This document shows positions 6,916 to 60,675 of a stretch of 64,000 bases of DNA, in pieces. Within the stretch, counting starts at the first letter, position 1; every line of letters begins with the position of its first letter. The notes beneath the pieces are model-generated. The model ran no database searches. It was not told the origin of the DNA and saw nothing but the letters and a program-made list of their open reading frames with translations. The stretch lies in the NCBI GenBank assembly GCA_963664705.1, contig OY761556.1, forward strand, positions 1,408,001 to 1,472,000, in the 5' to 3' direction. Origin of the DNA: Acidobacteriota bacterium. GTDB lineage: Bacteria; Acidobacteriota; UBA6911. A program made the translations under genes and the position numbers.

Positions 6916-7278
6916 GTTGTTTCCTTCATGGTTGCGGAGGGGAATATACAGCTTCGCCCCTTCAGTCACAGGGCTGCGGGGCTATTCGAGAGAAGTTTTG
7001 TGGTGCGCATTACTTATGTATTACTTTCGTATTCTGCTCAATGGCTCGGGGGTGTAGAGTCACTTGCCCTCATCGGCCCCTGTAAAATGAAGAATGTGAA
7101 GTAATTGTCAAGAATTATGAAGAATGGTGAATAATTAAACTTAAACGTTGGACGAAAAAACGTTGGACGTTGGGACGTTGGACGTTGGACGGGGAAACGT
7201 TAGACGTTGGACGATGGGGACGGGTATAGCACCTGGGTGCTATTGCCAAATTTCTATTTTGAATGTGTAATCCTGCTT

Positions 7279-7914
7279 ATGCTCACGCGCATTCTCATCG
7301 CCGACAGCCAGGATATGCTCCGCGAACTCCTGAAACGCCTGCTCGAATCGCAGCCGGACTTCTTCGTGGTCGCCGATACGGGCGACGGCGAGGCGCTCGA
7401 ACACCTCGTCGCCGAGCATTCCCCCGATGTGCTCGTCTGCGATCTGAATCTGCGCCGGCGCTCCGGCATCGATGTCCTGCAGGAAATTGCAGCGCAATTC
7501 CCGAAAGTCAAACCGATCGTCCTGACCGATACCATCGACGATGGCAGAATATTCCAGGTGCTGCTGCGCGGCGCCCGCGGGCTCGTCATGAAAGACGCCC
7601 CCGCCGCCACACTATATAAAAGCATTCGCACCGTCATGGCCGGGCAGTACTGGATCAGCCGCGATGGCGTCTCCGGCCTCATTGAATATATGCGCGCCTT
7701 CGCCGCATCCATCGAACAGGGAAAGACCCACCATACCCACCATCTGACGCCCAGGCAGCGGCAGATCGTCAAGTCCATCGCCGCCGGCTGCTCGAATAAG
7801 GAAATCGCCGACGAACTCGAAATTACCGAAAGAGCCGTCAAATATCACCTTACACGGCTGTATCAGATTTTCGGAGTCTCCGGGAGAATGGAACTTGCGC
7901 GCGTAACGTTATAA
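7279..7914 (+). CDS. NarL/LuxR-family response regulator
   Basis: REC domain (ILIADS, PDVLVCD, VMKD) plus LuxR HTH (LTPRQRQIV...G.SNKEIA..L.I....VKYH). Confidence 0.9.
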   Translation: MLTRILIADSQDMLRELLKRLLESQPDFFVVADTGDGEALEHLVAEHSPDVLVCDLNLRRRSGIDVLQEIAAQFPKVKPIVLTDTIDDGRIFQVLLRGARGLVMKDAPAATLYKSIRTVMAGQYWISRDGVSGLIEYMRAFAASIEQGKTHHTHHLTPRQRQIVKSIAAGCSNKEIADELEITERAVKYHLTRLYQIFGVSGRMELARVTL

Positions 7915-8047
7915 CGTTGGACGTTAGACGTTGGACGAAAAAACGTTGGACGTTGCGACGTTGGGACGTTGGACGATTGGGCCCGGTTTCACCTGCGTTG
8001 CCGGATTCGTGATAATTTGTGGAATTCGTGGCAATTAACCGTCCGTG

Positions 8048-8263
8048 TTAACGTTTTTCCCAGATCATGGACAGGCGCTTCTTTGTAACCGCGCAATCAC
8101 GAAGATACAGGTTGATCAGCGTCTGGTATGGGATTCCACATTCCTGGGAAAGCTGCTTGAAGTATTCGAGCGTCATGTCGTCCAGCCGGATCGTTACCTG
8201 GCGCTTGAGCCGGGCTGCATATGGATTCGGATGCCCCTTCGAAAAATCATATTCTCGTTTCAT
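8048..8263 (-). CDS. brnA: BrnA-type antitoxin
   Basis: MKREYDFSKG..NPYA...VTIRLD....YFK...GIPYQTLINLYLR; 4-bp overlap with the toxin gene. Confidence 0.85.
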   Translation of the reverse strand: MKREYDFSKGHPNPYAARLKRQVTIRLDDMTLEYFKQLSQECGIPYQTLINLYLRDCAVTKKRLSMIWEKR

Positions 8264-8556
8264 TGAATGTGCCTTCGACCATAGTCGTCCCGTTCCTTTC
8301 GGGTTGCCTTCCGTGCGGAGATGATCCTGATTGCGGAGTCAGCGCTCCGATAACAATGAGATACAACCAACAGGCGCAAATTACAGCTCAAGCCCAGAAG
8401 CAAGAAACGTTTCTCTCCATTAAAGTGACCGGGATCATCAATGAGCAGACCGAATTCATCCATAAAGATGGTTGTTGCTTCGTTGAAAGAAATGCCATGC
8501 TTGAGTTCATTTGACTGTGCCTTGTCGGGATCCCATTCAAATACTAGTTCATTCAT
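8260..8556 (-). CDS. brnT: BrnT-family ribonuclease toxin
   Basis: FEWDPDKAQSN..KHGISF.EA...E.RF...G...LLVVSH...IRIISARKAT..E. Confidence 0.9.
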   Translation of the reverse strand: MNELVFEWDPDKAQSNELKHGISFNEATTIFMDEFGLLIDDPGHFNGEKRFLLLGLSCNLRLLVVSHCYRSADSAIRIISARKATRKERDDYGRRHIQ

Positions 8557-8560
8557 ATAC

Positions 8561-8589
8561 AATGTAGCTACAATGTAGTTACGTGTCAA
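8561..8589 (-). promoter_or_regulatory. Sigma70 promoter of brnT-brnA with overlapping operator repeats
   Basis: TTGACA (8589-8584), 17 bp, TACATT (8566-8561), 4 nt before the ATG. Tandem 11-mers AATGTAGCTAC/AATGTAGTTAC include the palindrome TGTAGCTACA. Confidence 0.7.
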
Positions 8590-8830
8590 TGTCGAGATTT
8601 CAGATCGCCCGGGTTTATGGAGAATTGAGAAAGAGATGAATTTATTGTTTCGCCAAGTGTCGGGTTATTTCACGCTGTAAAGTGGAATGATCCAACGCCC
8701 AACGTCTAACGTCCAACGTTTCCACGTCCAACGTTTTTTCGTTCAACGTTTCAACGTGCCACCCGGGGGTAAGGAAAACTTCTACCAAGGTGCTATTTCC
8801 TAAGTCGCCCGGAGGGATTATTTTCAAATC

Positions 8831-9127
8831 ATGGTGCAAGTCCCCTTGCTTGCCATCGATCGAGCGGAGCGCTACCCCATAACAGTGCCTGTGCGCTTTC
8901 GTACCGGCGATTCCATCGAATGGGTCGGCGGCTCCAGCATCAATATCAGCCGCACCGGCATCCTGTTTATCTCCGACCGCAGCCTCCCCGCCGGCTCCTT
9001 CGTTGACGTCGAATTCGCCCTGCGCGGCGCCAATCTCTACTTCCAGGGATGCGTCGTCCGCTCCGCCACCGAAGGAACGGCCGTAAAATTCCGGCGGCAC
9101 AGCCTTTCCCATCGCCAAATCTCTTGA
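8831..9127 (+). CDS. Single-domain PilZ protein
   Basis: RxxxR-like DRAERYP and NISRTG (D/NxSxxG) motifs. Confidence 0.75.
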   Translation: MVQVPLLAIDRAERYPITVPVRFRTGDSIEWVGGSSINISRTGILFISDRSLPAGSFVDVEFALRGANLYFQGCVVRSATEGTAVKFRRHSLSHRQIS

Positions 9128-9161
9128 AGAAAATAGGAAGAAACTATAGCATCGACGGCCG

Positions 9162-10928
9162 ATGAGTCTGGGTAGGGGGTGTCCTATGCCGCGGGAGATC
9201 CTGGCCAGAGGCTTCTTTTATTGGCTGCGCGCTCCGAGAGATTATTCTGATTTCAGCCGCGAACAGTGGATCATGGCGATAGCACGCCTGTTCATGAGCC
9301 TCTGCTTCCTGGCCAATTCCGCGCACTCCCATGGCCTCTCTTCCACGCTCCCGACCACGCTGCTGTGCCTGTACTCGATCTACAGCGTCCTGATCACCTT
9401 CGCGCTGCGCTTCCGCATCCAGTCCAGCCCGGCTTTCCACATTGGCCTACATTGCGCCGACGTGCTCTGGGCCGCGCAGCTCGCGCTCGTCATCGAGTGG
9501 CCGGGCGTTTCCCTGGTCCTTTTGTTCTTCCTCCTGATCAGCTCCAAGATGCGCTGGGGCTTCTGGGAGGCGCTGCTGACCGGCGGCGGCTTCAGCTTCC
9601 TCTGGCTCGCGGGCAGCCTGATCTACAGCCCGGTCCTGGGCTGGCGGCATGCCTCTCCGCTCGATGCCTTGCTCGAGTTCGCCATCCACATGACGATGTC
9701 GCTCGTGATCGGGCGCCTGGCCGAGCCCAAGCTCATGCACATGGAAAAGAGCCGCCTGACCACCATCCTCGAAGGGATCGATTCCAGCCGCGGCCTGACC
9801 CCGGCGATGCAGACGATCTGCAGCGCGGCCATGAGCCTGTTCCGGGCCACCCAGATTCTCATCGCCATCCACGACCGGCACACCGACCGTACGCTGCTGT
9901 TCCGCGCCGGCAACACCTCCGAGAACGTCCAGTGCGAGGTCCTCACCCCCGAGCAATACTCGCATTACTTCTTCACTCCGCCCGCGACGGGCTGGCGCAT
10001 GAGGGCTGTTCGCCGCGCACGGACTCCCGAGTTCCGCTGCCTGACGCTGCAGGACGACCGTCTGCGCACCTGCCGGGGCGATTGCGGCATGCCGGAGACT
10101 TTCCTGGCCGAGCACCCGCTGCACCTGGTCCTGAGCGTCGATCTGCCGGTTGAGAACGAGATTTGCATCCGCCCGTTCGTGATCGATCCGCACCCGTGGT
10201 TCGGCGGCGCCGCGGCGCTGCGCTTCCTGTGGCGCGGGGCGCTCCAGGTTGCGCCCGTGATCCGCAGCCTGTTCCTCCTCGATCGCATTAAAAGCAAAGC
10301 GGAAGCCGAAGTCCACCACCGGCTGGCGCGCGAACTGCACGACGGTGCCATCCAGTCGCTCACCAGCATCAGCCTGCAGCTCGATCAGCTCTGGCGCTGC
10401 GCCGGGCCCGCCCTCACCGCCGAGGCGCTGCGGCTCGCATCCATCCAGAAAAATATCCGCGACGAGATCGCCTCCCTGCGCGAATTCGCCACCGAACTCC
10501 GCTCGCTCGACATCGATGCCGCCCGCCTCATCCCGCACCTGTCACAGCTGGCCGTCAAATTCCAGTTCGACAGCGATATCGCCGCCCGGTTCGCCTGCGA
10601 TGTCGAGGAAGTGCGGCTGCGGCCCAGCGTCTGCGTCGAAATCGCCCGGATCGCCCAGGAAGCCCTTGCCAATGTGCGGAAACACAGCGGCGCCGGGGAA
10701 GTCCTGATCCGCTTCAACCGGCGCAACGGCAATTACCTGCTCGCCATCACCGACAATGGCTGCGGATTCAAATTCAGCGGACGACGCTCCCACGAAGACC
10801 TGCGCGCCGCCGGGGAAGGGCCCGTCGTCATTTTGGAACGTGCCAAAGAAATACAAGCCCGGGTGGAAATTGAATCTATTCCGGGAAGCGGATCGAGTTT
10901 GGAAGTCAGTGTTCCCGTGGAACGTTGA
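9162..10928 (+). CDS. Membrane sensor histidine kinase (HisKA_3/NarX-like)
   Basis: Several N-terminal TM helices; RLARELHDGAIQ H-box, EALANVRKH N-box, DNGCGF G-box. Confidence 0.88.
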   Translation: MSLGRGCPMPREILARGFFYWLRAPRDYSDFSREQWIMAIARLFMSLCFLANSAHSHGLSSTLPTTLLCLYSIYSVLITFALRFRIQSSPAFHIGLHCADVLWAAQLALVIEWPGVSLVLLFFLLISSKMRWGFWEALLTGGGFSFLWLAGSLIYSPVLGWRHASPLDALLEFAIHMTMSLVIGRLAEPKLMHMEKSRLTTILEGIDSSRGLTPAMQTICSAAMSLFRATQILIAIHDRHTDRTLLFRAGNTSENVQCEVLTPEQYSHYFFTPPATGWRMRAVRRARTPEFRCLTLQDDRLRTCRGDCGMPETFLAEHPLHLVLSVDLPVENEICIRPFVIDPHPWFGGAAALRFLWRGALQVAPVIRSLFLLDRIKSKAEAEVHHRLARELHDGAIQSLTSISLQLDQLWRCAGPALTAEALRLASIQKNIRDEIASLREFATELRSLDIDAARLIPHLSQLAVKFQFDSDIAARFACDVEEVRLRPSVCVEIARIAQEALANVRKHSGAGEVLIRFNRRNGNYLLAITDNGCGFKFSGRRSHEDLRAAGEGPVVILERAKEIQARVEIESIPGSGSSLEVSVPVER

Positions 10929-11023
10929 ACGTTGAACGTTGGGACGTTGAACGTTGGGACGTTGGAACGCGGGGAGAAGTAGTTTGAATCCAAAAAGTAG
11001 ACATATTCGTATACAATAGGAAT

Positions 11024-11686
11024 ATGGATTCCGTACGAATTATCATTGCCGATGACCACACCATCCTGCGCGACGGCCTCAAAATGCTGATCGCGGATTA
11101 CCGGGAATTCGAGGTCGTGGGCGAAGCCTCGACGGGGACGCAGGCGCTCGAGGTTGTCGATCGGCTGGATCCGGACGTTCTGCTGCTCGATCTCGTCATG
11201 CCGGAGCTGGGGGGCATGAAGGTGCTGGAGGAGATGCTGGCGCGGAAGCACCGGACGCGGGTCATCATGCTGAGCGGTGCGATTGAAGGGGATGACATCA
11301 CGAAGGCGTTTGAGCTGGGTGCGCGCGGCCTGGTGAAAAAAGATGTCGCCGGGTCCATCCTGATCGACTGCATGCGCGCCGTGCTGGCAGGGAAGTACTG
11401 GATCGGGAGACAGAGCGCCGAGAATCTCGAGGAAGTCCTGCAGCGCTGCCGAAGCACCGCCAAGAGAGCCCGGCCGGAAAACTACCGTCTTACCCCGAGA
11501 GAGATGCAGATCATTAAGGCCGTCGTCTCCGCCTCCACGAACAAGGAGATCGCGCGGCAGCTATCGATCAGTGAAGAAACCGTCAAGCATCATATCACCA
11601 GCATCTTCGATAAACTCGGCGTCTACAATCGTCTTGAACTGACCCTTTTCGTCTTCCACCACGGCATCGTTGATAAAGCACGTTGA
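11024..11686 (+). CDS. NarL/LuxR-family response regulator, probable partner of the upstream kinase
   Basis: IIIADDH, PDVLLLD, LTPREMQI...NKEIA..LSISEETVKHH. Confidence 0.92.
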   Translation: MDSVRIIIADDHTILRDGLKMLIADYREFEVVGEASTGTQALEVVDRLDPDVLLLDLVMPELGGMKVLEEMLARKHRTRVIMLSGAIEGDDITKAFELGARGLVKKDVAGSILIDCMRAVLAGKYWIGRQSAENLEEVLQRCRSTAKRARPENYRLTPREMQIIKAVVSASTNKEIARQLSISEETVKHHITSIFDKLGVYNRLELTLFVFHHGIVDKAR

Positions 11687-11794
11687 ACGTTGGGACGTTG
11701 AACGTTTGAACGTTTGAACGTTGGAACGTTGGGACGTTGGACGTTTGGACGTTGAACGTTGAAACGTTGAAACGTTGGAACGTGGGAGCGGGAT

Positions 11795-11826
11795 AAAAAT
11801 TAAAAGGGCCCCAAGGATGGGGCCCT
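11795..11826 (-). terminator. Intrinsic terminator
   Basis: 9-bp stem AGGGCCCCA/TGGGGCCCT with a U-tract on the minus strand. Confidence 0.65.
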
Positions 11827-12035
11827 GTCGTTCGCAGTAGGTCTTTTTAAGGCGGGAACGATCCCTGGGGAGGAGATCGTCATTTTGAGTGGTTGTTGTT
11901 GCTCGCGCTTCGTTTAGATGAATCTAATGTCCCGTGGGGACTATCCCTGCATCCGGCCCCCCCTACATTTCCGTCTGCAGTATTCTGTCCCCACAACCGC
12001 TGGTCTCTGAGATGCCGCATCTCATTGACCGAAGT
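11795..12035 (-). ncRNA. Candidate structured small RNA with multiple GGA motifs
   Basis: No convincing ORF; several hairpins, six GGA motifs, own terminator (see findings). Confidence 0.3.
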
Positions 12036-12146
12036 GATATTTAAACATTTAAGAAGATTGAAAACTATTCGTGGGAATACTCAATGAAGGCTGGGTAGTA
12101 CTACGCAGCGGCGGGGCAGGCGGATTTGCCGCCCGCCCCGTGGCTG

Positions 12147-12299
12147 TTAGGCTTGTGGAATTAGTGCTTTGGTAAGGGTTTCACGGTCCGTGTCGTTGAA
12201 GTACTTCAGGCCGCACACGATACACAACACTATGGATGTCCCTTTTTCGTTGGGGCTGACGTAAACCGGGCGCCCACAATCTTTGCACTCGATTTCCAT
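12147..12299 (-). CDS. 50-aa zinc-ribbon protein
   Basis: MEIECKDCG...LCIVCG has two CxxC pairs; followed by a GC hairpin at about 12108-12142. Confidence 0.55.
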   Translation of the reverse strand: MEIECKDCGRPVYVSPNEKGTSIVLCIVCGLKYFNDTDRETLTKALIPQA

Positions 12300-12564
12300 C
12301 GTGATTTGAGTCAGTGAGGGGGCAAAAGCGCCAAGCAGAATAGATTCAGACTCGCTAAAATAATCAATCAACATCAAATGCACTCCAAAACAAATTACGG
12401 GTGTAATGGTACCGACAAAACGCCATAAATTCCACGAATTCCACAAATAATCGGTTACCCGAAATGGCGCCAATTTATACACCGTGTCACCGAAGACACG
12501 TTGAACGTTCAACGTTTCAACGTTCAACGTTTCGGCGTATAATCGGCCGAAAAAGGAGCAGCCC

Positions 12565-13125
12565 ATGATCACGAGACGCGATTTTGTCAAAGGTGTTGCA
12601 GGAACCGCTGTTGTTGGCGCGCTGATAGAGCCGGGGAAGAATGAAACCCTCGTCGCCTCCTGCGGACTCTACTGCGGCGCATGCCCCATGTACCTCGCCA
12701 CCCAGAGCAAGGACGAGTCGAGAATCAAAACGATGATGCAGCAATTCTCCGCCTCGAAGATGAACTGGAAGATGGAAGATCTGCTGTGCGACGGATGCCG
12801 GGGCACCGGGCAGCTGGCCGTCTTCTGCCGCAAATGCGCCATCCGCGATTCGGCGGCGGCGAAAACCAAGTCCAGACTCTGTTCGGACTGCTCCGACTTT
12901 GCCTGCTCGCGCATCACTGGCTTTAATAATGACGGCATGGTGCACCACGCGGAAGTGCTGGCAAATCTGAAACAGCTCAAAGCGGTGGGACTTACGGAAT
13001 GGGCGAAGATGGAAGACGCGCGGTGGGCCTGCCCCGGCTGCAAAGGGCGGATTTCGTGGTATGAGGCCAAGTGCCCGAAATGCGGCACGGCACGCTCGGC
13101 CAAGCTCTTTCCCCTCAAAGCGTAA
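12565..13125 (+). CDS. DUF3795-type Cys-rich metal-binding protein with a twin-arginine motif
   Basis: RBS AAGGAG; TRRDFVK; SCGLYCGAC, CDGC, CSDCSDFAC, CPGC/CPKC. Confidence 0.75.
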   Translation: MITRRDFVKGVAGTAVVGALIEPGKNETLVASCGLYCGACPMYLATQSKDESRIKTMMQQFSASKMNWKMEDLLCDGCRGTGQLAVFCRKCAIRDSAAAKTKSRLCSDCSDFACSRITGFNNDGMVHHAEVLANLKQLKAVGLTEWAKMEDARWACPGCKGRISWYEAKCPKCGTARSAKLFPLKA

Positions 13126-13279
13126 AAGAACGTTGGACGTTGGGACGTTGCACGTTGGACAAGCGGCCACGAATTCCACGAATTATCACGAATCCGGAAG
13201 CGCAAATGAAACCGGGCCTTGTCGTCCAACGTCCCAACGTCCCAACGTCTAACGTCCAACGTTTCTTCGTCCAACGATT

Positions 13280-14188
13280 TCAGCGCGCACGACGAGCGAT
13301 GATGTGATAGTCGCCGCCGGGGATCGTCACTTCGATGTGCCTCTCGGCGTTACCGTCTTTCAGTGGCGTGCGGTACACGATGGAATAGTGGCTCGAGAGG
13401 AGATGTGTGATGGTGCGGCACAGCCCGCTGACATCCCCGTCCTGGCCCGAGGCGCTGATTTCTTCCGGGCCCAGCATCAATTGGTCCGATCCGGACTGTT
13501 CCTGGATCAGGGTCAACCTGCTTTTCGACTCCTCGGAAAATCCTGCAGCGATCAGTATTACGCCGGATTCCCTCAAGTGTTCGATTGAGGATTGCCTCAG
13601 CTCTTCCGGGTGATCGCGAATGAGCAGCAGCGCCTTTCGCTGGTTGTCCCCTTTTTTCGCCGCCTTCAGTCCGAGGTCGATCCCCAGTCCCACCTGTGGC
13701 GGAGTGATGAAGCTGCGCCCGATCCGGCGCGGCCGCCGGCTGTGCGAGAGGACGCCGATGTTTTCCAGCGCTGTGATGATCTCCAGGCGGTCCCGGGTGA
13801 AACGCTGCTCGAGGTAGGCGTCGCGCTGATCATAGGAGTAGAGCGCGATTTCATCCGTCGGCTTGAGAAGATGGATGAGCTGCGAAATCATGTTCTTCGC
13901 GATCGAGAGGCTGGATTGCGGCATGAAGCCGGTCCCCAGCGAGATGACCAGGCTCACCGGGACGTCCGAGAGTTGTTTGAAGTTGGCGATTTCCACGGGT
14001 GTCCCGTTTTCCCTGATCTCGAAGGCATCGCCGGCGAGGCCGGGGACCGCTCGTCCTTGCCGATCGAGCACTTCCACATCCAGGAAGACGAGGTGGACTT
14101 CCACCTTGAAGGGAGGGTTCTTCTTTTGGGCAAAGGCGGCCAACACGAACAAAAGGGTGCTGGCGAAAATGATCAGGGTGCGTCGCAT
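13280..14188 (-). CDS. Acidobacterial VWFA-related (VWA) domain protein
   Basis: Signal peptide; FKVEVHLVFLDVEVLDRQGRAV.GL....FEIRENG; YSIVY; MIDAS motif appears degenerate. Confidence 0.75.
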   Translation of the reverse strand: MRRTLIIFASTLLFVLAAFAQKKNPPFKVEVHLVFLDVEVLDRQGRAVPGLAGDAFEIRENGTPVEIANFKQLSDVPVSLVISLGTGFMPQSSLSIAKNMISQLIHLLKPTDEIALYSYDQRDAYLEQRFTRDRLEIITALENIGVLSHSRRPRRIGRSFITPPQVGLGIDLGLKAAKKGDNQRKALLLIRDHPEELRQSSIEHLRESGVILIAAGFSEESKSRLTLIQEQSGSDQLMLGPEEISASGQDGDVSGLCRTITHLLSSHYSIVYRTPLKDGNAERHIEVTIPGGDYHIIARRAR

Positions 14189-14269
14189 GGATTCCCTCTT
14201 ACCCGATATAACGATAGAGTACTGCAAAACGTGGCGTTTTTTTGACTTTTGTAATAATCTCGATGGGCG

Positions 14270-14950
14270 ATGAAAAACAGACGCAATTACTACCGGATCC
14301 TGCAGGTGCAGCCGGACGCGCCGACGGAGATCATTCACGCGAGCTATCGCGCGATGATGCGTGATCTGAAGCAGCACCCCGACCTGGGCGGGTCGACGTA
14401 CGAGGCCGCTCTCATTAATGAAGCGTTCGAGACGCTTGGCAACCCGGAAAAGCGCGCGGCCTACGACCAGGAGCTGTTCCTGAAGTTTACGAAGCAGGTG
14501 CATTCGCGGACGATGTCGCCGATTGCGCCGGTGCTCTGTCCGGTCTGTCGTCGGCCGCTGTCGCGGACGCCGGAGCCCGGGGAGATCTGCTCAACCTGCC
14601 GGACGCCGCTGCAATCGGACGAAGCGCCGCTCTCCGCGCCGTCCAACAAGCGCTCGATGGATCGCATCAGGAGTTCCGAGCCGGTGGAGTATTACCCGAG
14701 CTGGCCGGGGAAGGCGCACAAAGGAAAGCTGATTGATTTTTCTCCGAAGGGGCTGCGATTTCTGTGCAGCGAGCGGCTGGCGCCGCAGACTGTGCTGAAG
14801 ATCAGCAGCCGGCTTTTCGAAGCCTCAGGCACGGTGACGAATGTGAGCGAAGAAGCGGCGGGCGTGAAACCGTCTTATGCCATCGGCATTTGTTTCCTGG
14901 CCGTGAACTTCAGCGACACCCGCGGCACCTTCCTTTCTACCTCGGCGTAA
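14270..14950 (+). CDS. DnaJ-domain protein with zinc ribbon and PilZ domain
   Basis: NYYRILQV...HPD J-domain; CPVC/CSTC; KRSMDR and DFSPKG PilZ motifs. Confidence 0.8.
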   Translation: MKNRRNYYRILQVQPDAPTEIIHASYRAMMRDLKQHPDLGGSTYEAALINEAFETLGNPEKRAAYDQELFLKFTKQVHSRTMSPIAPVLCPVCRRPLSRTPEPGEICSTCRTPLQSDEAPLSAPSNKRSMDRIRSSEPVEYYPSWPGKAHKGKLIDFSPKGLRFLCSERLAPQTVLKISSRLFEASGTVTNVSEEAAGVKPSYAIGICFLAVNFSDTRGTFLSTSA

Positions 14951-15003
14951 AGACCGTTGAACGTTAAAACGTTAAACGTTGAAACGTTCCAACGTTCAAC
15001 GTT

Positions 15004-16371
15004 TCACGGACATGTCGCGGTTCCCAGGATCACATTCGATTCCAATTGAATATCGAGCGCATTGACGCTTCCATCTTTATTACTGTCGCAGTTCGCCGGG
15101 CAGGCATTCTTCCCCAGGATCGTGTTGGCGAGCGCCTGCAAATCCAGGACATTGGTCAGGGTATCGCCGTTGATATCGCAGTTCCCGGACCCGCTGGTCA
15201 CCAGGCACCCGGGGTACTGGCTGACGTGCGAGCTGATCTCCGACTTGGAGTAGGTGCAGAAGGTCGTCCCGGTCCCGAGCGAGGAATTCATAATCGTGTT
15301 GACGCAGTCCGGTTGGGCCGGCGAGGCGTTTTCCGTATGCGACGCCCCGAAGTTGTGCCCGATCTCGTGCGCGGTCAGAATATATTTTCCCGGCGAGGCG
15401 GCCAGGGATTGCGACACGCCGTAGGTAAAGGAAGCGGCATAGCAGGTCACCCCGACATAGGCGATCCCGACGGTGGAGCCGTCCATATCTTTCCCGGTCC
15501 ACATGTGCGCAATATCGTAGGGGACGGAGCCGAGGTTGGTGCTGCCCCAGTTCCGGAATTCGGCCAGCATGGAGGATGGGTCGGTGGAGGTGTAAGGATC
15601 GCCGGAGGTAGCCCATGCGTGCTGGTAGATGACGTGCAGCGAAATGTTGAGCTGCGAGCTATAGATGCCGTCCACCTGGTTCATGATATCCAGGATCGCG
15701 TTGTTGGCGTTGGCGGCGCTGCCGTTGGCGGTCACGAACTCATAATCGGCCTCGGTGGCGACGTCGGCAACCGAGACGGAGGCGCCGGCAATGGCGAACT
15801 GGGCGGCAATCACTCCCTGGACATGGGCGGCCTGTGTGCTGATCTGTTCGGCGAGGGCGGTGGCGCAGGTCCCGAAGGCTTCCGGGATGATGTCCGAGGC
15901 GCGGTACACCACCATTTCGGCCTGGTCTGCCGTGGCGTCGTAGTTGCGCAGCGGCTCGACGAGGTACCATTCGTGCGGCGTGATCACGATGCCTTCGATG
16001 GCATCCTCGCGCAGGCTGAACCGGACTTCGCTGCCGGGGATGCCGGCGGCCGTGCCGCGGAAGGTCCGGAGGCTGGCCGGAGTAACCGGGTAGGCGATGC
16101 CGTCCTCGGCGACCGCTTCGGCGCGGTAGCGCGGCGAGCGGATATCGTTCGGGGCCACCATCAGTTCAAGCGTCCCGTCCTCGGTGGGGATGGTGACGCG
16201 GCCCATGGTTCTGGCTCTGCGGACGATTGCGCGCGTGTCCACGGCGACGCGCTGATAGTGCCGCAGGTAGCGGTCGACGCGGTGGGTGTCCTGAGCGTGG
16301 GCGGCGGCGGGCATCCCTGCGAGGAGATAGGTGATGAGTGCGGATAGGAAAATGCCGATTCGCTTGTGCAT
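15004..16371 (-). CDS. Secreted M12/reprolysin-like zinc metallopeptidase with a C-terminal dockerin-like domain
   Basis: Signal peptide; HEIGHNFGASH; Met-turn IMN; duplicated D.N.DG..N.LD.Q motif. Confidence 0.85.
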   Translation of the reverse strand: MHKRIGIFLSALITYLLAGMPAAAHAQDTHRVDRYLRHYQRVAVDTRAIVRRARTMGRVTIPTEDGTLELMVAPNDIRSPRYRAEAVAEDGIAYPVTPASLRTFRGTAAGIPGSEVRFSLREDAIEGIVITPHEWYLVEPLRNYDATADQAEMVVYRASDIIPEAFGTCATALAEQISTQAAHVQGVIAAQFAIAGASVSVADVATEADYEFVTANGSAANANNAILDIMNQVDGIYSSQLNISLHVIYQHAWATSGDPYTSTDPSSMLAEFRNWGSTNLGSVPYDIAHMWTGKDMDGSTVGIAYVGVTCYAASFTYGVSQSLAASPGKYILTAHEIGHNFGASHTENASPAQPDCVNTIMNSSLGTGTTFCTYSKSEISSHVSQYPGCLVTSGSGNCDINGDTLTNVLDLQALANTILGKNACPANCDSNKDGSVNALDIQLESNVILGTATCP

Positions 16372-31724: not shown

Positions 31725-32418
31725 GGCCCGGAGGGCTGAAAGAACGTAGCCGGGGGTGAAGCGAAGCGAACCCCCGGATAGCATGAAAGTAAAAGGAACC
31801 CCGGAGGGGTGAAAGATCCATGGCAATTACCATAGATACCTTTCGTCAAACTCGACTCCATTTTCCCGCAGCAGCTCAATGTACTCTTCTTGAAATGTTT
31901 TAAGTCGATGGTGTTCCTTTTGCCGCGCTATGTAGGATCTTAGTGGGTCCAACCCTAAACGACTGACAGAATAGGCGCCATAGCCGTCTTGCCACTCAAA
32001 TGATCGAATGCCAACGTGTTGATGAATCCATGCTGATGAGCTCGATTTTAGTTCTCGAAGGATGTCCGATATTCGATGGGTGGGTTTGAGGCAAGCAAGT
32101 AAGTGCACATGCTCGATGCATCCTCCAATCGTGTCCGGCAATGCCCCGATGTTGCGGAGGGTACCGCCAAGGTAGGCATGTAAGCGTGATTCCCATGCGT
32201 CCTTGATCCAGGCAAGTCGTCCTTTGGTGCTGAAAACGAAATGAAAATAGAGACTTGAGTGCGTTGATGGCATATTCGTTCCTCCACCTACCTAATGAGG
32301 AACCTTGGGAAAGTGCCAACAATTTCTGTCGCCCCGCTGGGGCTTGTTTCCGAATCAACCTAATCCGGGGGTTCGCTTCGCTCACCCCCGGCTACGTTCT
32401 GAACACCCCTCCGGGGTT
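31725..32418. mobile_element. RAYT/REPtron-like locus: Y1 transposase gene between inverted REPs
   Basis: Plus REP 31725-31816 and minus REP 32326-32418 directly flank the tnpA gene; no tnpB. Confidence 0.75.
31827..32273 (-). CDS. tnpA: IS200/IS605-family Y1 HUH transposase (REP-associated)
   Basis: HFVFSTK.R, EHVHL (HUH), K..SS, WQDGYGAYSVS, YIARQ (catalytic Tyr), FDERYLW. Confidence 0.9.
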   Translation of the reverse strand: MPSTHSSLYFHFVFSTKGRLAWIKDAWESRLHAYLGGTLRNIGALPDTIGGCIEHVHLLACLKPTHRISDILRELKSSSSAWIHQHVGIRSFEWQDGYGAYSVSRLGLDPLRSYIARQKEHHRLKTFQEEYIELLRENGVEFDERYLW

Positions 32419-32442
32419 GATGGACAGGTTTGGCGTGCCTTG

Positions 32443-32571
32443 CGGGTCATTGCGGCGACGATGCGTGATATTGGCACACGTTTGCCGGGTCATTGCGGGG
32501 GCGATGCGTGATATTGGCACACGTTTGCCGGATCATTGCGGGGGCGATGCGTGATATTGGCACACGGTTGC
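32443..32571. repeat. Three tandem 43-bp repeats next to the REP
   Basis: TCATTGCGG..CGATGCGTGATATTGGCACACG at 32447, 32490 and 32533. Confidence 0.88.
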
Positions 32572-34525: not shown

Positions 34526-34866
34526 GCGTGTCCTCCGCGGTTTTGAAACGGTTAATTAGATCATTGGTTTTTCGCAATGCAAAGAAGAAACGTTGGAACG
34601 TTGAACGTTGAAACGTTGAACGTTACGAGGCCGCGGTTTGTCCGTAAGGGCAGGTTTTTGCGTAATGATTGCGAGCGTATGACTTCCGGTCGCTTTGTCC
34701 CCAACCTTCAACGTTCCCACGTGCAACGTCCAACGGTTCCAACGTCCAACGTTCCCTCGTCCAACGTGCAACGTTTCAACGTCCAACGTCCCAACGTGCA
34801 ACGTTTCAACGTGCTATACTTCCTTTAGAGATATCCCCCCCCCCAAAAAAAAGGATATTCCGTAGC

Positions 34867-44008: not shown

Positions 44009-44223
44009 ACGTTTGGACGTTGAGACGTTGGACGTTTGGACGTTGGACGTTTGGACGTTAAACGTTGCACGTTAAACCTTGTATGTTGTTAGTCTAAGTC
44101 CAGCGTTCTAATTCAGCGTGTAACGTTGCACGTTCCCACATCCCAACGTCCAAACGTCCAACGTCGCAACGTCCAACGTGCAACGTTCCATCGTCCAACG
44201 TCCAACGTGCAACGTCCCAACGT

Positions 44224-44685
44224 TCAACGTACATCCGCCCTTTGCGCAAGGACCGTGACGAAAGTACTGGGGTTGCTCGCCGATTGAGTTCTGCCGGAGT
44301 GCGGGGCGGGGAATTCCATCCCGATGTTCCAGTCTTCAAAGAACCAATAGCGGAGCGCTTCAGGTTCCCCGGATCCGCGCCGTTCAAAGGTCACGATCGC
44401 AGCGCGGTCCGTTTCCGGCCTGCGTGCCGCTGCTCCCATGATGAACCCTTCCCACTTGCCGCGATCCACGCTGTAAATCTTCATCAGGCGCAGGGTTACC
44501 TCGTTTGGACACCGCTGGAGAATATAGGATCCGGCGGGGAACACCGCTGAACCGATTTGAACCGACTGGTCGAAATAGATCGCTGTCGGCCAGCTTACAT
44601 CTTCTGCCTTCGCGGCCGGTACAAGCACGGAAAGAACAGTCATAAGGCACGCTGCAACCGCAAATCCTTTCAGGCAATTCTTCAT
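44224..44685 (-). CDS. Secreted hypothetical protein
   Basis: Signal peptide (AAKA-E); FDQSVQIG..VFPAGSY, VTFERR...PEALRYWF; RBS AAGGGG. Confidence 0.65.
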   Translation of the reverse strand: MKNCLKGFAVAACLMTVLSVLVPAAKAEDVSWPTAIYFDQSVQIGSAVFPAGSYILQRCPNEVTLRLMKIYSVDRGKWEGFIMGAAARRPETDRAAIVTFERRGSGEPEALRYWFFEDWNIGMEFPAPHSGRTQSASNPSTFVTVLAQRADVR

Positions 44686-45045: not shown

Positions 45046-47178
45046 ATGGCGGAATCGAACTATACAAAGCTGGATGCATTTTTCAATCCTACTTCCATTG
45101 CAGTCGTGGGGGCTTCAACCAAGCCGCATACGGTCGGCAACGACCTTTTGCGCAATCTTATCTTTCACGAGTTCAACGGATCGGTTTATCCGATCAATCC
45201 GAAGGCCCAATCGATATTGGGCATCCATGCCTATCCCAGTCTGAAGGATCTCCCGGCGCCGGTGGATCTCATCTGTGTCGCGGTGCCGGCGCAGACTGTT
45301 CTGGAGGTGGTGCGGCAGGCGTCTGAAATCGGTGTGAAAGCGATGGTGCTGCTTTCGGCCGGGTTCAAGGAGTCGGGCCAGGAAGGGATCGAGCTGGAGC
45401 AGAAGCTGCGGCGGGCGGTGCGGGATGCGGGGATTGCGCTCATCGGGCCCAATTGCCTGGGCATCATCAACACGGACCCGCGGGCCAGTCTCAATGCCAC
45501 GTTTGCCCGCAAGATGCCGCATGCGGGGAACCTGGCGTTCATTTCGCAGAGCGGGGCGCTCTGCACCTCGGTGCTCGACTATGCCGAGGAGCGGCGGATG
45601 GGATTCAGCAAGTTTGTGAGTTTCGGCAACAAGGCCGACGTCAATGAAATCGATCTGCTTTCCTATCTGGCGGAGGACGAGAACACGCATGTCATCGCGA
45701 TGTACCTGGAGGACATCAGCAACGGTCGGGCATTTATCGAGACGGCTCGGGAAGTTTTCTGGCGCACGGGCAAGCCGATGCTTTGCCTCAAATCCGGGCG
45801 TTCGCCGGAGGGGGCGAAGGCGGTGAGCAGCCACACCGGCTCGCTGGCGGGATCGGACAACGTTTACGATGCCATCATGATGCAAAGCGGTGTGGAGCGT
45901 GTGGACAAGATTTCCGAGCTGTTCGACTATGCGGCGCTTTACACGACGCAGCCAATGCCGAAGGGGAATCGGTTGGCCATTATCACCAATGCCGGCGGCC
46001 CGGGGATTATGGCGACGGATGCCGCGGTGCGTGCCGGCCTGAAGCTGGCCACCTTGTCGGCCGCCACGAAGGACAAACTGCGTTCGGGGCTTCCGGCTGC
46101 GGCGGCGCTGGGTAATCCGGTGGATGTGATCGGCGATGCCCGCGCCGATCGTTACCAGGTGGCGGTGCGCACGGTGCTGGAGGATCCGGATGTCGACATG
46201 GGGCTGGTGATCCTGACTCCGCAGTCGATGACGGAGATCGAGGGGACGGCCAGGATTATCCCGGAAGCGCTGCGGGGGTTGAACAAACCGGTCGCCTGCT
46301 CCTTCATGGGGGCCAGGGATGTTACGGCGGGCGTGGAACTCCTGCGGGGCGCCGGCGTTCCCAATTATCCTTTTCCGGAGGATGCGGTGCTGGCGCTGGC
46401 GGCGGCCGAGCGTCTGTCGTCCACGCTGGAAATGGCCGATCGGGAGGAAGTGACGTTCAAGGATCACGACGTGGCCCGGGCTCGGCGCATTGTCGCGGAC
46501 GCGCTGGCGGGGCGCGAGGAAAAATACCTGACGCAATCCGAGTGCCGTCCGCTGCTGGAATGCTATCAATTTCCGCTGCTCTTCAGCCGCATGGCGACGA
46601 GTGCGGAAGAAGCGTCCGGAATTGTCGAGCAGTTCGGGCGTACCGTCGTGATGAAGATCATGTCGCCGGACGTCGTCCACAAGCTGGATGCGGGCGGGGT
46701 TTTGCTCGGCATCCGCGGGGCGGAAGAGGCAGCCAACGCCTACAACCGGATTGTGACAAACGTAAAACAATCCGTTCCGAACGCTCAGATTCAGGGTGTT
46801 CTGATTGAAGAAATGGCTTCGAAGGGGGTGGAGGTCATCCTGGGTGCGACAAAAGATCCGAGGTTCGGGTCGCTGCTCATGTTCGGACTGGGCGGCTCTT
46901 TTGTCGAGGTGTTCAAGGATGTGACATTTCGGCTGGCGCCCATGTGGCGTGCCTCCGCGCACCGGATGGTGCAGCAGATCCGCGCCTTCAAAATCCTGAC
47001 GGGAGTGCGCGGCGCGCCGCCGTCCGATCTGTCGGCGCTGGAGGATGTCCTGCTGAGGCTTTCCGCGCTGGTGGTCGATAACCCGGAGATATCCGAACTG
47101 GATATCAACCCGCTGATCGTCCACCCGGAAGGGCAGGGCTGCTCCGTTGCCGACAGCCGCATCCTGCTAAAACGTTGA
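45046..47178 (+). CDS. Acetate/acyl-CoA ligase (ADP-forming), fused alpha-beta
   Basis: IAVVGAS, YPINP, GPNCLG, ISQSGA, SHTGSLAG (phospho-His), NPVD, HKLDAGGV, ELDINP. Confidence 0.9.
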   Translation: MAESNYTKLDAFFNPTSIAVVGASTKPHTVGNDLLRNLIFHEFNGSVYPINPKAQSILGIHAYPSLKDLPAPVDLICVAVPAQTVLEVVRQASEIGVKAMVLLSAGFKESGQEGIELEQKLRRAVRDAGIALIGPNCLGIINTDPRASLNATFARKMPHAGNLAFISQSGALCTSVLDYAEERRMGFSKFVSFGNKADVNEIDLLSYLAEDENTHVIAMYLEDISNGRAFIETAREVFWRTGKPMLCLKSGRSPEGAKAVSSHTGSLAGSDNVYDAIMMQSGVERVDKISELFDYAALYTTQPMPKGNRLAIITNAGGPGIMATDAAVRAGLKLATLSAATKDKLRSGLPAAAALGNPVDVIGDARADRYQVAVRTVLEDPDVDMGLVILTPQSMTEIEGTARIIPEALRGLNKPVACSFMGARDVTAGVELLRGAGVPNYPFPEDAVLALAAAERLSSTLEMADREEVTFKDHDVARARRIVADALAGREEKYLTQSECRPLLECYQFPLLFSRMATSAEEASGIVEQFGRTVVMKIMSPDVVHKLDAGGVLLGIRGAEEAANAYNRIVTNVKQSVPNAQIQGVLIEEMASKGVEVILGATKDPRFGSLLMFGLGGSFVEVFKDVTFRLAPMWRASAHRMVQQIRAFKILTGVRGAPPSDLSALEDVLLRLSALVVDNPEISELDINPLIVHPEGQGCSVADSRILLKR

Positions 47179-47482
47179 GACGTTGGACGTGGGGACGTTG
47201 CACGTTGGACGTTGGGACGTTGGACGATGGGCCGTTAGCCGTTGGGACGTTGGACGTTAAGCCATTGCACGTTCCCACGTCCTACGTCCAAACGCCCAAC
47301 GTCCAACGTGCAACGTGCAACGTCCCAACGTGCAACGTCCCCAACGTCCAACGTTCCAACGTTTCCACGTCCAACGTCCCAACGTCTAACGTCCAACGTT
47401 CCAAACGTGCAACGTCCAACGTTCCAACGTTTCCCGCGTCCAACGTCTGTGATAACCTATTTCTTTCGAGGAAAAGTGCTTC

Positions 47483-49687: not shown

Positions 49688-50785
49688 TCCGCGCTTCCGG
49701 GGTTCCGGGCAAATAATGTGCGACATTGGGCGTCTTGCCGACAAGGGCGTGGACGCTTCCATCGCGCCGATGTCGACGGGATGGCCAATGCCACATATTG
49801 ATTGTTCTAATCGCTGTGACGCGAGGGAAGCAACCGGCCCGGCGCCCGAAAGAACGTAGCCGGGGCTGATGCCTTGCGATTGTGCTTTAGCTCTTCGGTC
49901 TGGGTCTGATTCGCGGTTCCGGCTTCCTCGGATAAATAATGTGTGACATTGGGCGTCTGGCCGGCAAGGGCGTGGACGCTTCCATCGCGCCGATGTCGAC
50001 GGGATGAGCAATGCTGCATATTAATTGTTCTAAGCGCTGTGATGCGAGGGAAGCAACCGGCGCGGAGGGCCCGAAAGAACGTAGCCGGGGCTAGGCTTTC
50101 GTGATGCCTTGCGATTGTGCATTAGCTCTTCGGTCTGGGTCTGATCCTCGGTTCCGGCTTCCTCAGATAAATAATGTGCGACATTGGGCGTCTGGCCGGC
50201 AAGGGCGTGGACGCTTCCATAGCGCCGGTGTCGACGGGATGGCCAATGCCACATATTATTTGCTCTAAGCGCTGTGACGCGAGGGAAACAACAGGCCCGG
50301 AGGGCCCAAAAGAACGTAGCCGGGGGTGAAGCGAACCCCCGGCATAGATAAGCGGGAGAAAGAGCCCCGGCTAGGGGCGAAAGATCAGCATTCTGCCGCC
50401 CCGCTGGGGCTTGTTACATGCCTAATCCAATCCGGGGGTTCGCTTCGCTTCACCCCCGGCTACGTTCTGACCGCCCCTGCCGGGGCTGATGCCTTGCGAT
50501 TGTGCATTAGCTTTTCGGTCTGGGTCTGATTCGCGGTTCCGGCTTCCTCGGGCAAATAATGTGTGACATTGGGCGTCTGGCCGACAAGGGCGTGGACGCT
50601 TCCATCGTGCCGATGTCGACGGGATGGCCAATGCCACATATTATTTGCTCCAAGCGCTGTGACGCGAGGGAAGCAACCAGCCCGGAGGGCCCGAAAGAAC
50701 GTAGCCGGGGGTGAAGCGAAGCGAACCCCCGGTATAGATAAGCGGGAGAAAGAGCCCCGGCTAGGGGCGAAAGATCAGCACGGCG
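49685..50785. repeat. Four tandem ~220-385-bp units carrying REP parts (BIME-like array)
   Basis: AAATAATGTG.GACATTGGGCGTC... recurs at 49711, 49934, 50169 and 50554; each unit runs into GAAAGAACGTAGCCGGGG. Confidence 0.9.
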
Positions 50786-55056: not shown

Positions 55057-55497
55057 TCAACGTCCAACGTCCCAACGTCCAACGTCCCAACGTCCCAACG
55101 TCCAACGTCAACGTCCCCACGTCCAACGTCCAACGTCCCAACGTCCCAACGTCCCCAACGTCCAACGTCCAACGTCCCAACGTTCAACGTCCCAACGTCC
55201 CCAACGTCCAACGTCCCAACGTTCAACGTCCCAACGTCCAACGTCCAACGTTTCAGCGTCCAACGTTCAACGTCAACGTCCCCACGTCCAACGTCCAACG
55301 TCCCAACGTCCCAACGTCCAACGTCCCAACGTCCAACGTTCAACGTCCCAACGTTCAACGTCCCAACGTCCCAACGTCCAACGTCCCAACGTCCCAACGT
55401 CCAACGTTCAACGTCCCAACGTCCAACGTCCAACGTCCAACGTTTCAGCGTCTCAACGTCCCCAACGTCCAACGTTCAACGTTCAACGTTCAACGTT
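55057..55497. repeat. Long irregular AACGTC(C)n array
   Basis: About 440 bp of AACGTCC/AACGTCCC/AACGTTC units; overlaps the stop codon of the minus-strand gene at 55483. Confidence 0.95.
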
Positions 55498-57549: not shown

Positions 57550-57662
57550 AGCGGATGCCGCGTATTTCACGAGGTCGCGGAGGCGCCCTGTAAAATACGC
57601 GGCACCAGGATGCTCAAACCCCATCCGATCCACAATTCATCCATACCGAAAAATGGCAGGCT

Positions 57663-59831: not shown

Positions 59832-59872
59832 GGAACGTTGGACGTTGCACGTTGGAACGTTGGAACGTGACG

Positions 59873-60202
59873 CTACCGGCGTAGCTGCTTTTGACGCCAG
59901 AGATCGTTCCCCCCGGCGCGGCCATCCTGCAGACGATCATACAGGCTCGGATATTTTGCCTGAAAGCTCTTCTCGTTCAGGTTTTCGTCCAGCAGCTTTC
60001 CTTCCGAATTCTTGACCGTGTAGACCGTTCCCTTCTCCCCTTTGCTGATCGTGACAACCTTGTCCCGCATCTTAAGGTGTCCCAGAACCACTCCGCCAGT
60101 CGTGGAAATCTGAGTCCCTTTTTCCTCGGCAAAAGGATTTGTGATCACGATGAAAGTAAGGCAGACAGCCACAATACAGGAACAGATAAGTACTTTTTTC
60201 AT
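59873..60202 (-). CDS. Small exported hypothetical protein
   Basis: Signal-like N-terminus MKKVLICSCIVAV; RBS AGGGGG; the ORF-track extension to 60454 is repeat-derived. Confidence 0.6.
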   Translation of the reverse strand: MKKVLICSCIVAVCLTFIVITNPFAEEKGTQISTTGGVVLGHLKMRDKVVTISKGEKGTVYTVKNSEGKLLDENLNEKSFQAKYPSLYDRLQDGRAGGNDLWRQKQLRR

Positions 60203-60251
60203 GAAGCACCCCCCTGCTGAAGCTATTATCCCGCGAATCGATCCCGCCGGC

Positions 60252-60675
60252 AACGTCCAACGTCCCAACGTCCAACGTCCAACGTCCCAACGTCCAACGT
60301 CCAACGTCCCAACGTCCCAACGTCCCAACGTCCCAACGTCCAACGTCCCAACGTCCAACGTCCCAACGTCCAACGTCCAACGTCCCAACGTCCAACGTCC
60401 AACGTCCCAACGTCCCAACGTCCAACGTCCCAACGTCCAACGTCCAACGTCCAACGTCCCAACGTCCCAACGTCCAACGTTTCAACGTCCAACGTCCAAC
60501 GTCCCAACGTCCAACGTCTCAACGTCCCAACGTCTCAACGTCTCAACGTCCAACGTCCCAACGTCCCAACGTCCAACGTCCCAACGTCCAACGTCCAACG
60601 TCCCAACGTCCAACGTCCCAACGTCCAACGTCTCAACGTCCAACGTCCAACGTCCAACGTCCAACGTCCCACGTT
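60252..60675. repeat. Long irregular AACGTC(C)n array
   Basis: About 420 bp of AACGTCC/AACGTCCC/AACGTCTC units starting right after the stop codon of the minus-strand gene at 60676. Confidence 0.95.

What the first reader, a model, noticed from the sequence alone, without database searches (positions are those of the whole stretch)
7144..60675. Strand-polarised, stuttering ACGT-core repeat arrays anchored at stop codons
Seen: about 18 intergenic arrays of irregular 7-9-mers (GGACGTT, GGGACGTT, GAACGTT, GAAACGTT, GCACGTT) at ~7144, 7904, 8691, 10920, 11680, 12498, 13129, 13223, 14955, 34589, 34707, 44003, 44121, 47171, 47266, 55057, 59834 and 60252, up to ~440 bp long. Arrays that directly follow a gene mostly read as the G-rich strand in that gene's direction (+ genes ending 7914, 10928, 11686, 13125, 44008, 47178, 59831; - genes ending 13280, 15004, 44224, 55483, 60676). 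Six of these genes end in CGT-TGA, so the first repeat unit supplies the stop. Unit length wobbles as in irregular telomeric repeats, and a variant signature GGACGAAAAAACGTTGGACG recurs at 7150, 7933 and inverted near 8725, which suggests copying from a common source rather than independent slippage. Inference: an uncharacterised process seeds or extends these tracts at gene 3' ends (templated repeat addition, or nicking plus conversion at ACGT), or they are selected as 3' RNA or protein-binding elements. No candidate enzyme is visible in the window.
Basis: partly seen in the sequence, partly recalled or inferred. Interest (0 to 1): 0.8.

Follow-up and report, generated by a model that had tools for sequence, protein, structure and literature searches.

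The report
Repeat hairpins spreading around their gene
These arrays are arms of gene-less DNA hairpins, built of the same short repeat that brackets a small four-helix-bundle gene 32 kb away; they crowd around that gene and fade with distance, so the gene likely seeds them locally, a testable lead to the origin of bacterial 7-base repeats.

Summary
The 18 arrays are real; short-read contigs match eight of them letter for letter. They are arms of inverted hairpin elements: G-form precedes C-form in 54 of 55 paired cases (three genomes), which explains the strand polarity. Stop-codon overlap is real (CGT-TGA ends 12 of 30 armed genes versus 17 of 4996 others); some arms replace the last codons. 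That gene has the same arms and belongs to a cross-phylum clade with ACGT arms. Spacer occupancy falls from 16 of 22 within 15 kb to 5 of 2629 beyond 105 kb. Local crowding recurs in 5 other gene-repeat pairs (two with a GxxExxY nuclease gene) and is absent in 7. Families overwrite each other at orthologous slots. No telomerase-like enzyme was found; the chemistry is unknown. The scan reported gene-plus-arms cassettes on other DNA before; the distance gradient did not come up in my look-ups. An unexplained GC3 peak covers the domain.

The parts
7145..7207 (+). single G-form arm, 7 cores, between divergent gene starts. It carries the signature shared with the arm of the cognate four-helix-bundle gene, which lies OUTSIDE the window, 32 kb to the left (G000:C1:1375887-1376255, minus strand, 122 aa, arms C1:1375728-1376504; L001:15887-16255)
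   Evidence: the gene:
7906..7969 (+). G-form arm, 8 cores, overlapping the stop of a NarL-type regulator; left arm around a BrnT/BrnA pair
8702..8757 (-). C-form arm, 7 cores; right arm around the BrnT/BrnA pair
10922..10962 (+). G-form arm, 6 cores; supplies CGT-TGA of the histidine kinase gene
11680..11783 (+). G-form arm, 14 cores; supplies CGT-TGA of the response regulator gene
12498..12530 (-). mainly C-form arm, 5 cores, 34 nt before a gene start
13130..13262 (.). complete hairpin between convergent stops: G-form arm 13130-13155, C-form arm 13229-13262
   Evidence: MFE -67.2 kcal/mol as RNA
14961..15002 (.). short loopless hairpin, 6 cores, directly after the stop at 15004(-)
34590..34812 (.). 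hairpin between divergent starts: G-form arm 34590-34623, C-form arm 34711-34812 (no stop codon involved)
44009..44230 (.). hairpin between convergent genes, both ending CGT-TGA: G-form arm 44009-44072, C-form arm 44123-44230; the outer-membrane factor ends 13 codons earlier than its G014 homologue
47172..47446 (.). hairpin between acetate-CoA ligase (ends CGT-TGA) and relA: G-form arm 47172-47220, C-form arm 47247-47446 (24 cores)
55060..55496 (-). expanded arm, 57 cores, supplying the stop of the gene ending 55483(-); faces an arm of another heptamer family
59835..59868 (+). G-form arm, 5 cores, after the oligopeptidase stop; left arm around a 109-aa ORF
60253..60674 (-). expanded arm, 57 cores, starting at the CGA-TGA stop of the AEC-family transporter; unit order no more block-repeated than shuffled

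Best explanation
The arrays are arms of gene-less inverted-repeat (hairpin) elements made of the same ACGT-core 7-8-mer that brackets a four-helix-bundle gene 32 kb left of the window, and that gene's product likely seeds them in cis, so that they fill gene junctions near the gene and thin out over about 100 kb. SHOWN: hairpin build (G-form then C-form); confinement and distance gradient; the protein's place in an ACGT-armed clade; arms that replace the last codons and supply a stop; swapping of repeat families at orthologous slots; the same crowding around other cognate genes. INFERRED: the protein, probably a pentamer like its solved relatives, recognises its own repeat. It would act near where it is made or within one chromosomal contact domain, and would direct a host nuclease or polymerase to lay a new arm at a gene end or over an older hairpin. 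Stop-bearing units (ACGTTGA, ACGTTAG) would make landing in the last codons harmless. Random-like unit order suggests re-synthesis with stutter rather than faithful copying of one master. Older families would become genome-wide through rearrangement and rare long jumps, and would outlast the gene. The catalytic step is not identified.
For: Confinement: 34 of 42 occupied spacers in 170 kb, against a maximum of 8 in 2000 random draws. Occupancy is 16/22 within 15 kb of the gene, 1/10, 6/19, 3/24 and 7/36 out to 105 kb, and 5/2629 beyond. All five such genes of the genome have inverted heptamer arms, each of its own family. The protein falls in a clade (FastTree support 94) of 13 rows, 12 distinct, of which 11 have ACGT arms, in Acidobacteriota and Chloroflexota; 16 of 104 rows overall have ACGT arms. 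A rare signature is shared only by the gene's arm and three window arms. Replicates within 100 kb of the cognate gene, own arms excluded: G046 5 of 21 sites (0.48 expected), G048 8 of 49 (1.17), G049 2 of 9 (0.2), and the G043 decamer family around its only GxxExxY gene found, 15 of 50. The G000 nonamer family has 5 of 5 sites, own site included, within 100 kb of the GxxExxY gene at 3.80 Mb. G046 and G048 show the crowding away from the G000 polysaccharide locus and without a GC3 peak. G006 versus G043 (89% nucleotide identity): of 49 ACGT sites, 33 could be anchored; 18 hold ACGT in G043 and 15 do not, of which 13 hold the decamer family (counted by eye). C-termini such as NVER/DVER are array-encoded where orthologues end otherwise.
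Against: Seven of 13 gene-repeat pairs tested show no clear local crowding: four other four-helix-bundle genes and two GxxExxY genes of G000, and G017. The age explanation for these is untested. Ten of 30 genus genomes carry the ACGT pattern, but an ACGT-armed gene was found in only 2 (G000, G022). G006 has a dense domain with no such gene found in the pieces read; these are fragmented assemblies. G046, G048 and G049 appear related and share neighbours of the gene, so they count as about one event. Array similarity does not fall with distance beyond 1 kb (Mantel r 0.04, p 0.76), and the two arms of one element are not more alike than arms of different elements (p 0.17, 8 pairs). The G000, G006 and G043 domains share one polysaccharide locus and a GC3 excess, which this model does not predict. 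The protein has no known catalytic site. Repeat patterns were defined after seeing the arms.
Confidence: 0.6

Rival explanations
1. Imported block: the 170-kb domain, with gene and arrays, came by horizontal transfer or large-scale recombination from a higher-GC relative in which the family was genome-wide.
For: Domain genes have GC3 0.70-0.85 against 0.60 elsewhere (99th percentile 0.716). Third-position skew is reversed at 1.26-1.375 Mb. A polysaccharide-locus ABC transporter has close matches in exactly the six genus genomes with most ACGT matches, 6 of 30.
Against: GC3 and occupancy fall off gradually, without a sharp edge. Domain genes (relA, folD and others) are about as similar to G014 and G003 as genes outside (78 vs 78%, 80 vs 79%; G005 83 vs 76%; n = 4-7 inside). 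In G043, identity to G000 is the same inside and outside the domain (74 vs 73%, 106 and 202 genes). The G006/G043 domain covers core genes that lie at 2.3-2.6 Mb in G000 without arrays. Families differ at orthologous slots of two 89%-identical genomes.
Confidence: 0.14
2. Permissive chromosomal domain: the neighbourhood of the polysaccharide locus recombines or is repaired unusually often, which raises GC3 and lets any repeat family accumulate; the gene is a passenger.
For: G000, G006 and G043 domains all include the gmd-fcl to wzc locus. In G043 two families share one domain and GC3 excess tracks element density (rho 0.67, 35 windows, not independent). G006 has a domain without a cognate gene found.
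Against: In G000 the older heptamer families are not enriched in the domain. Crowding around cognate genes also occurs in G046 and G048 without a GC3 peak, and at G000 3.80 Mb with ordinary GC3. The protein's clade predicts its repeat.
Confidence: 0.13
3. Selected RNA elements: the hairpins are kept as 3' stabilisers, terminators or protein-binding sites of the local mRNAs, and arise by ordinary slippage.
For: Paired arms fold into long stems (-67 to -156 kcal/mol, 4 elements folded). 30 of 59 arms begin within 12 nt of a stop. A regulatory role was proposed for TAACTGA repeats (PMC4679880, abstract).
Against: Orthologues in G014, G005 and G003 lack ACGT arms. Neighbouring genes share no function. 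Selection alone gives no reason for confinement around one gene. Unit order shows no excess of adjacent identical units (56 observed vs 63.8 shuffled, 20 arrays), which simple slippage would give. A secondary RNA role remains possible.
Confidence: 0.07
4. One reading: a telomerase-like enzyme adds repeats at gene 3' ends in the direction of transcription.
For: Irregular 7/8 units in random-like order; tight start at stops; fold likeness of the protein to Avd, the partner of a reverse transcriptase (PMC6182149 passages).
Against: Polarity is explained by hairpin build and also holds at gene starts. The only reverse transcriptase found is a distant group II intron type. No template RNA was identified.
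Confidence: 0.06

Closest known systems
REPIN / RAYT systems (PMC3116915, passages; PMC8049555, passages)
   Same: Intergenic inverted doublets that form hairpins, with singlets as probable remnants, and several families per genome. That each family has its own flanked single-copy gene is recalled, not read.
   Different: Arms are irregular tandem 7-8-mers, not one palindromic REP word. The gene is a four-helix bundle, not a Y1 HUH transposase. REPIN doublets are described as randomly distributed in extragenic space, whereas these crowd within about 100 kb of the gene. 'Local amplification' of REPINs means tandem copies, not regional spread.
Four-helix-bundle / 23S rRNA intervening-sequence proteins (TIGR02436, PF05635; structures 2GSC, 2RLD)
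   Same: Family hits over cut-off; predicted fold TM 0.87 to 2GSC.
   Different: The gene is not inside an rRNA gene. It lies between a DUF2207 gene and an LPG-synthase gene, flanked by repeat arms. No link to repeats was found in print.
Bacterial heptamer repeats of unknown origin, e.g. TAACTGA in Beggiatoaceae (PMC4679880, abstract and passages)
   Same: Intergenic heptamer arrays, oriented to genes, some overlapping stop codons because the unit encodes stops; 'no mechanism is evident'.
   Different: Here a cognate gene, a hairpin build, a distance gradient and family swapping are shown. That paper has no occurrence of 'four helix' or 'intervening'.
Avd of diversity-generating retroelements (4DWL; PMC6182149 passages)
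   Same: Four-helix fold, TM 0.74 at 8% identity. Avd is a pentameric, positively charged barrel that works with a polymerase.
   Different: No reverse transcriptase near the gene; template and variable repeats were not searched for; fold likeness only.

Membership tests
TIGR02436 / PF05635 four-helix-bundle protein (the gene at C1:1375887-1376255) | profile match over the curated cut-off | tested here: met
   TIGR02436 99.8 bits, cut-off 24; PF05635 105 bits, cut-off 33.8
TIGR02436 / PF05635 four-helix-bundle protein (the gene at C1:1375887-1376255) | four long helices, like 2GSC | tested here: met
   model pLDDT 96; TM 0.87 to 2GSC
TIGR02436 / PF05635 four-helix-bundle protein (the gene at C1:1375887-1376255) | pentamer | not tested
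   2GSC and 2RLD hold five chains; no complex job was run
ORF-bearing 23S rRNA intervening sequence | located inside a 23S rRNA gene | tested here: not met
   neighbours are protein genes
REPIN / RAYT | inverted doublet forming a hairpin in extragenic space | tested here: met
   54 of 55 paired arms are G-form then C-form; folds
REPIN / RAYT | cognate gene is a Y1 HUH tyrosine transposase | tested here: not met
   the armed gene is PF05635. The window's Y1 transposase at 31827-32273 has other inverted ends, without ACGT arms
REPIN / RAYT | doublets randomly spread over the genome | tested here: not met
   34 of 42 occupied spacers in 170 kb
REPIN / RAYT | conserved, near-clonal repeat word | tested here: not met
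   irregular unit order, no excess arm-to-arm likeness; the G043 and G046 families are more stereotyped
Diversity-generating retroelement / telomerase-like RT system | reverse transcriptase gene in the locus | tested here: not met
   single RVT_1 hit at 5.755 Mb with a group II maturase domain
Diversity-generating retroelement / telomerase-like RT system | template RNA | not testable with these tools
   no RNA run available for this DNA
MITE / IS-type element | target-site duplication at filled versus empty sites | tested here: inconclusive
   the nearest genome pairs (87-89% identity) are too diverged to read junctions

The most novel reading that the evidence does not exclude
A small Avd-like ring protein recruits a host polymerase to write its own cognate 7-8-mer de novo, with telomerase-like stutter, into gene ends and older hairpins within its chromosomal neighbourhood. 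Each such gene paints a domain of about 200 kb, rewrites protein C-termini, competes with GxxExxY-linked families for the same slots and, over long times, shifts local GC3. This would be a cis-acting repeat-writing system and the source of bacterial heptamer repeats.
Probability: 0.25. Interest if true: 0.92.

Novelty: new variant of a known kind. Interest (0 to 1): 0.74.

Why it matters
Heptamer repeats are the commonest long simple repeats in many prokaryotic genomes and have no accepted origin (PMC4679880, introduction and abstract), and TIGR02436 proteins have no function. A steep distance gradient around the cognate gene, seen with two unrelated protein families, is the kind of evidence that separates a driver from a passenger. 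It also makes the question directly testable: move the gene and see whether the repeats follow. The elements rewrite the last residues of ordinary proteins and replace one another at the same junctions, so they are an overlooked force on operon ends.

Tried and rejected
Assembly artefact: rejected for eight arrays; the two longest arrays were not checked against reads. Replichore or ori/ter position: dnaA is at 5.29 Mb and the skew peak at 2.0 Mb in G000, while in G043 the domain starts 240 kb from dnaA; both arm orientations occur in the domain. Neighbour-to-neighbour copying with decay: no signal. Arms copied from each other within an element: no signal. Block duplication or single-unit slippage as the source of unit order: not supported, although the 55060 array holds one degenerate repeated block seen by eye. 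GC3 rise as a general effect of the cassette: not seen in G046 or G048. Insertion footprints: pairs too diverged. Species tree: five rpoB rows were wrong-strand ORFs and the relA tree did not finish, so I use it only for the rough place of G000. A single-sequence fold was poor (pLDDT 44) and was replaced by the alignment-based one. No RNA holder was listed, which is no evidence either way. Run X6 laid no reads and X5 gave only short pieces. G047 could not be scored because its list was cut; G050 and G051 had no match to the pattern used. Paper searches for a link between these proteins and repeats found none; some searches gave background only. The library lacks most subscription journals, and no supplements were read.
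Full report
Observation. The window holds 18 ACGT-core arrays at the stated places, against at most 1 in 100 Markov simulations. Units are mainly ACGTTGG, ACGTTGGG, ACGTTGA, ACGTTAG and ACGTTGC. Short-read contigs of the same sample match 7162-15100 without a difference, so eight arrays and their wobble are real; the two 57-unit arrays were not checked this way. Gene positions below come from my own hexamer gene caller and family scans.

Build and polarity. Where two opposite arms lie within 250 bases, the G-form comes first in 54 of 55 cases in G000, G006 and G043. Four window pairs fold as long stems. Such an element reads G-form first from either side, so a gene ending at it is always followed by the G-rich strand. 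Of 59 intergenic arms (2 of 61 inside called genes were dropped), 42 start at the nearer gene: 28 at a stop and 14 at a start. Thirty begin within 12 nt of a stop. Four other heptamer families of the genome are polarised the same way (20:10, 20:3, 11:3, 4:1); one nonamer family scored the other way (4:10). CGT-TGA ends 12 of 30 armed genes and 17 of 4996 others. Units with TGA or TAG carry stops in all three frames, the passive reason given for TAACTGA in PMC4679880 (passages). Orthologue comparison shows that arms often replace the last codons: G006 and G043 proteins end in NVER or DVER where partners end otherwise, and the window's outer-membrane factor is 13 codons shorter than its G014 homologue. 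Other armed genes keep their native end and the arm follows it.

The main finding lies outside the window. The window is G000:C1:1408001-1472000 of a 6.89-Mb single contig. Of 61 arms, 53 lie at 1.313-1.479 Mb, and 34 of 42 occupied spacers fall in 170 kb, against at most 8 in 2000 draws. Inside this domain, 32 kb left of the window (C1:1375887-1376255, minus strand), is a TIGR02436/PF05635 gene bracketed by the same arms. Occupancy is 16 of 22 spacers within 15 kb, 17 of 89 from 15 to 105 kb, and 5 of 2629 beyond. The other four such genes each have inverted arms of their own heptamer, and three GxxExxY genes have nonamer-type arms. In a tree of 104 relatives the protein lies in a clade of 13 rows (12 distinct; support 94) with 11 ACGT-armed members from two phyla; 5 more ACGT-armed rows lie elsewhere. 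So it is a cognate gene, not one that merely landed there. Its model (pLDDT 96) matches 2GSC (TM 0.87) and Avd (TM 0.74).

Replicates and failures. Cognate arms are enriched within 100 kb of the gene in G046 (5 of 21 sites, 0.48 expected), G048 (8 of 49, 1.17) and weakly G049 (2 of 9, 0.2); these genomes appear related and count as about one event. In G043 a decamer hairpin family surrounds the only GxxExxY gene found: 15 of 50 sites lie on the same contig within 100 kb, and 19 more in the last 74 kb of another contig whose adjacency is not shown. In G000 a nonamer family has 5 of 5 sites, own site included, near the GxxExxY gene at 3.80 Mb. No clear crowding was seen for six other genes of G000 or for G017: 6 positive of 13 pairs. 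Ten of 30 genus genomes have the ACGT pattern. It is spread over many contigs in G021 (first places listed) and patchy in G006 and G043. An ACGT-armed gene was found only in G000 and G022.

Slot swapping. G006 and G043 are 89% identical over 171 kb. Of 49 ACGT sites in the G006 pieces, 33 could be anchored: 18 hold ACGT in G043, 13 the decamer family (mostly at about the same length), one another heptamer, and one is empty (classes counted by eye). The junction downstream of fcl holds an ACGT hairpin in G000 and G006 and the GxxExxY cassette in G043. Elements therefore replace one another rather than pile up.

How the units are made. Unit order is random-like: adjacent identical units 56 against 63.8 shuffled in 20 arrays, and the longest repeated blocks are not above shuffles in three long arrays. 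Arms of one element are not more alike than others, and similarity does not fall with distance beyond 1 kb. This argues against faithful copying and against plain slippage, and leaves re-synthesis with stutter or many rounds of exchange. The only reverse transcriptase found is a group II intron type at 5.755 Mb.

Unexplained. The domain is the genome's GC3 peak: 0.70-0.85 against 0.60, with shoulders to 1.53 Mb and array-free low-GC islands inside. Orthologues in G014, G005 and G003 show only about +0.035. In G043, GC3 excess tracks element density. G046 and G048 show no such peak. The G000, G006 and G043 domains share a polysaccharide locus while their flanks differ, and one gene of that locus has close matches in exactly the six genomes richest in ACGT arrays. 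Third-position skew is reversed at 1.26-1.375 Mb and stronger at 1.42-1.55 Mb; an inversion is the simplest reading. These facts keep an imported block and a permissive domain alive as rivals.

Comparison. In build it works like REPIN/RAYT, but it fails that family's tests for the transposase, random spread and clonal word (PMC3116915 and PMC8049555, passages). It is not an rRNA intervening sequence and not a retroelement. Avd is described as a pentameric, positively charged barrel (PMC6182149, passages). Searches found no paper linking these proteins to repeats; coverage of subscription journals is poor and no supplements were read. The cis preference of some transposases, used here as an analogy, is recalled. 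Earlier notes of this scan describe gene-plus-arms cassettes and gene-less hairpins on other DNA. I reached the gene link before reading them, and a look-up for regional clustering returned no finding holding all the words.

Verdict. A real feature, and a new variant of the gene-plus-gene-less-hairpin kind. The new and testable point is spread in cis around the cognate gene. The chemistry is open. Interest 0.74.

Noticed in passing
G000:C1:1.25-1.55 Mb (window included): Highest GC3 of the genome, centred near 1.37-1.38 Mb, with third-position skew reversed on the left and stronger on the right: an inversion or an origin-like pattern. The same GC3 excess appears in the G043 domain, not in G046 or G048.
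   Followed up: partly
G043:C7:765013-765582 (L202): GxxExxY (PDDEXK_3) gene between decamer arms; gene-less decamer hairpins with an AT-rich loop crowd around it, some as tandem copies with their flanks.
   Followed up: partly
window 8048-8571; L001:19108-19600; L002:9608-10129: BrnT/BrnA, HicA/HicB and an ORF6N gene lie between ACGT arms, possibly as cargo.
   Followed up: no
window, directly left of the arm at 55060: An arm of the heptamer family of the four-helix-bundle gene at 3.10 Mb faces the 57-unit ACGT arm, making a mixed-family pair.
   Followed up: no
window 13167-13193: Nonamer units of a GxxExxY-type family sit in the loop of the ACGT hairpin 13130-13262.
   Followed up: no
window 31750-32420 and from about 17310: IS200/Y1 transposase ORF (148 aa) with long inverted ends; one end recurs near 17310 beside three 64-bp tandem copies; three 43-bp copies at 32443-32571.
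   Followed up: no
window 49682-50326: Three 235-bp tandem copies starting at the relA stop; the stretch next to them (about 50290-50490) has dozens of matches on both strands in G014 and G006, like a dispersed palindromic element.
   Followed up: no
L034-L063: At orthologous four-helix-bundle loci in the genus the arm unit changes between species, both arms together.
   Followed up: partly
L002:7773-9497: A polysaccharide-locus ABC transporter with close matches in exactly the six genus genomes richest in ACGT arrays, 6 of 30.
   Followed up: partly
G000:C1:361615-362076: The four-helix-bundle gene of the commonest heptamer family is frameshifted after about residue 88, while its repeats remain genome-wide.
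   Followed up: no
G000:C1:1333993-1345000: Low-GC island with a D5-like primase and a type I restriction-modification system inside the domain, free of arrays.
   Followed up: no
window 61693-62265 and 62501-63610: A second, divergent elongation factor P (40% identical to the other copy) and an IS110 copy whose protein is identical to one at 6.87 Mb.
   Followed up: no
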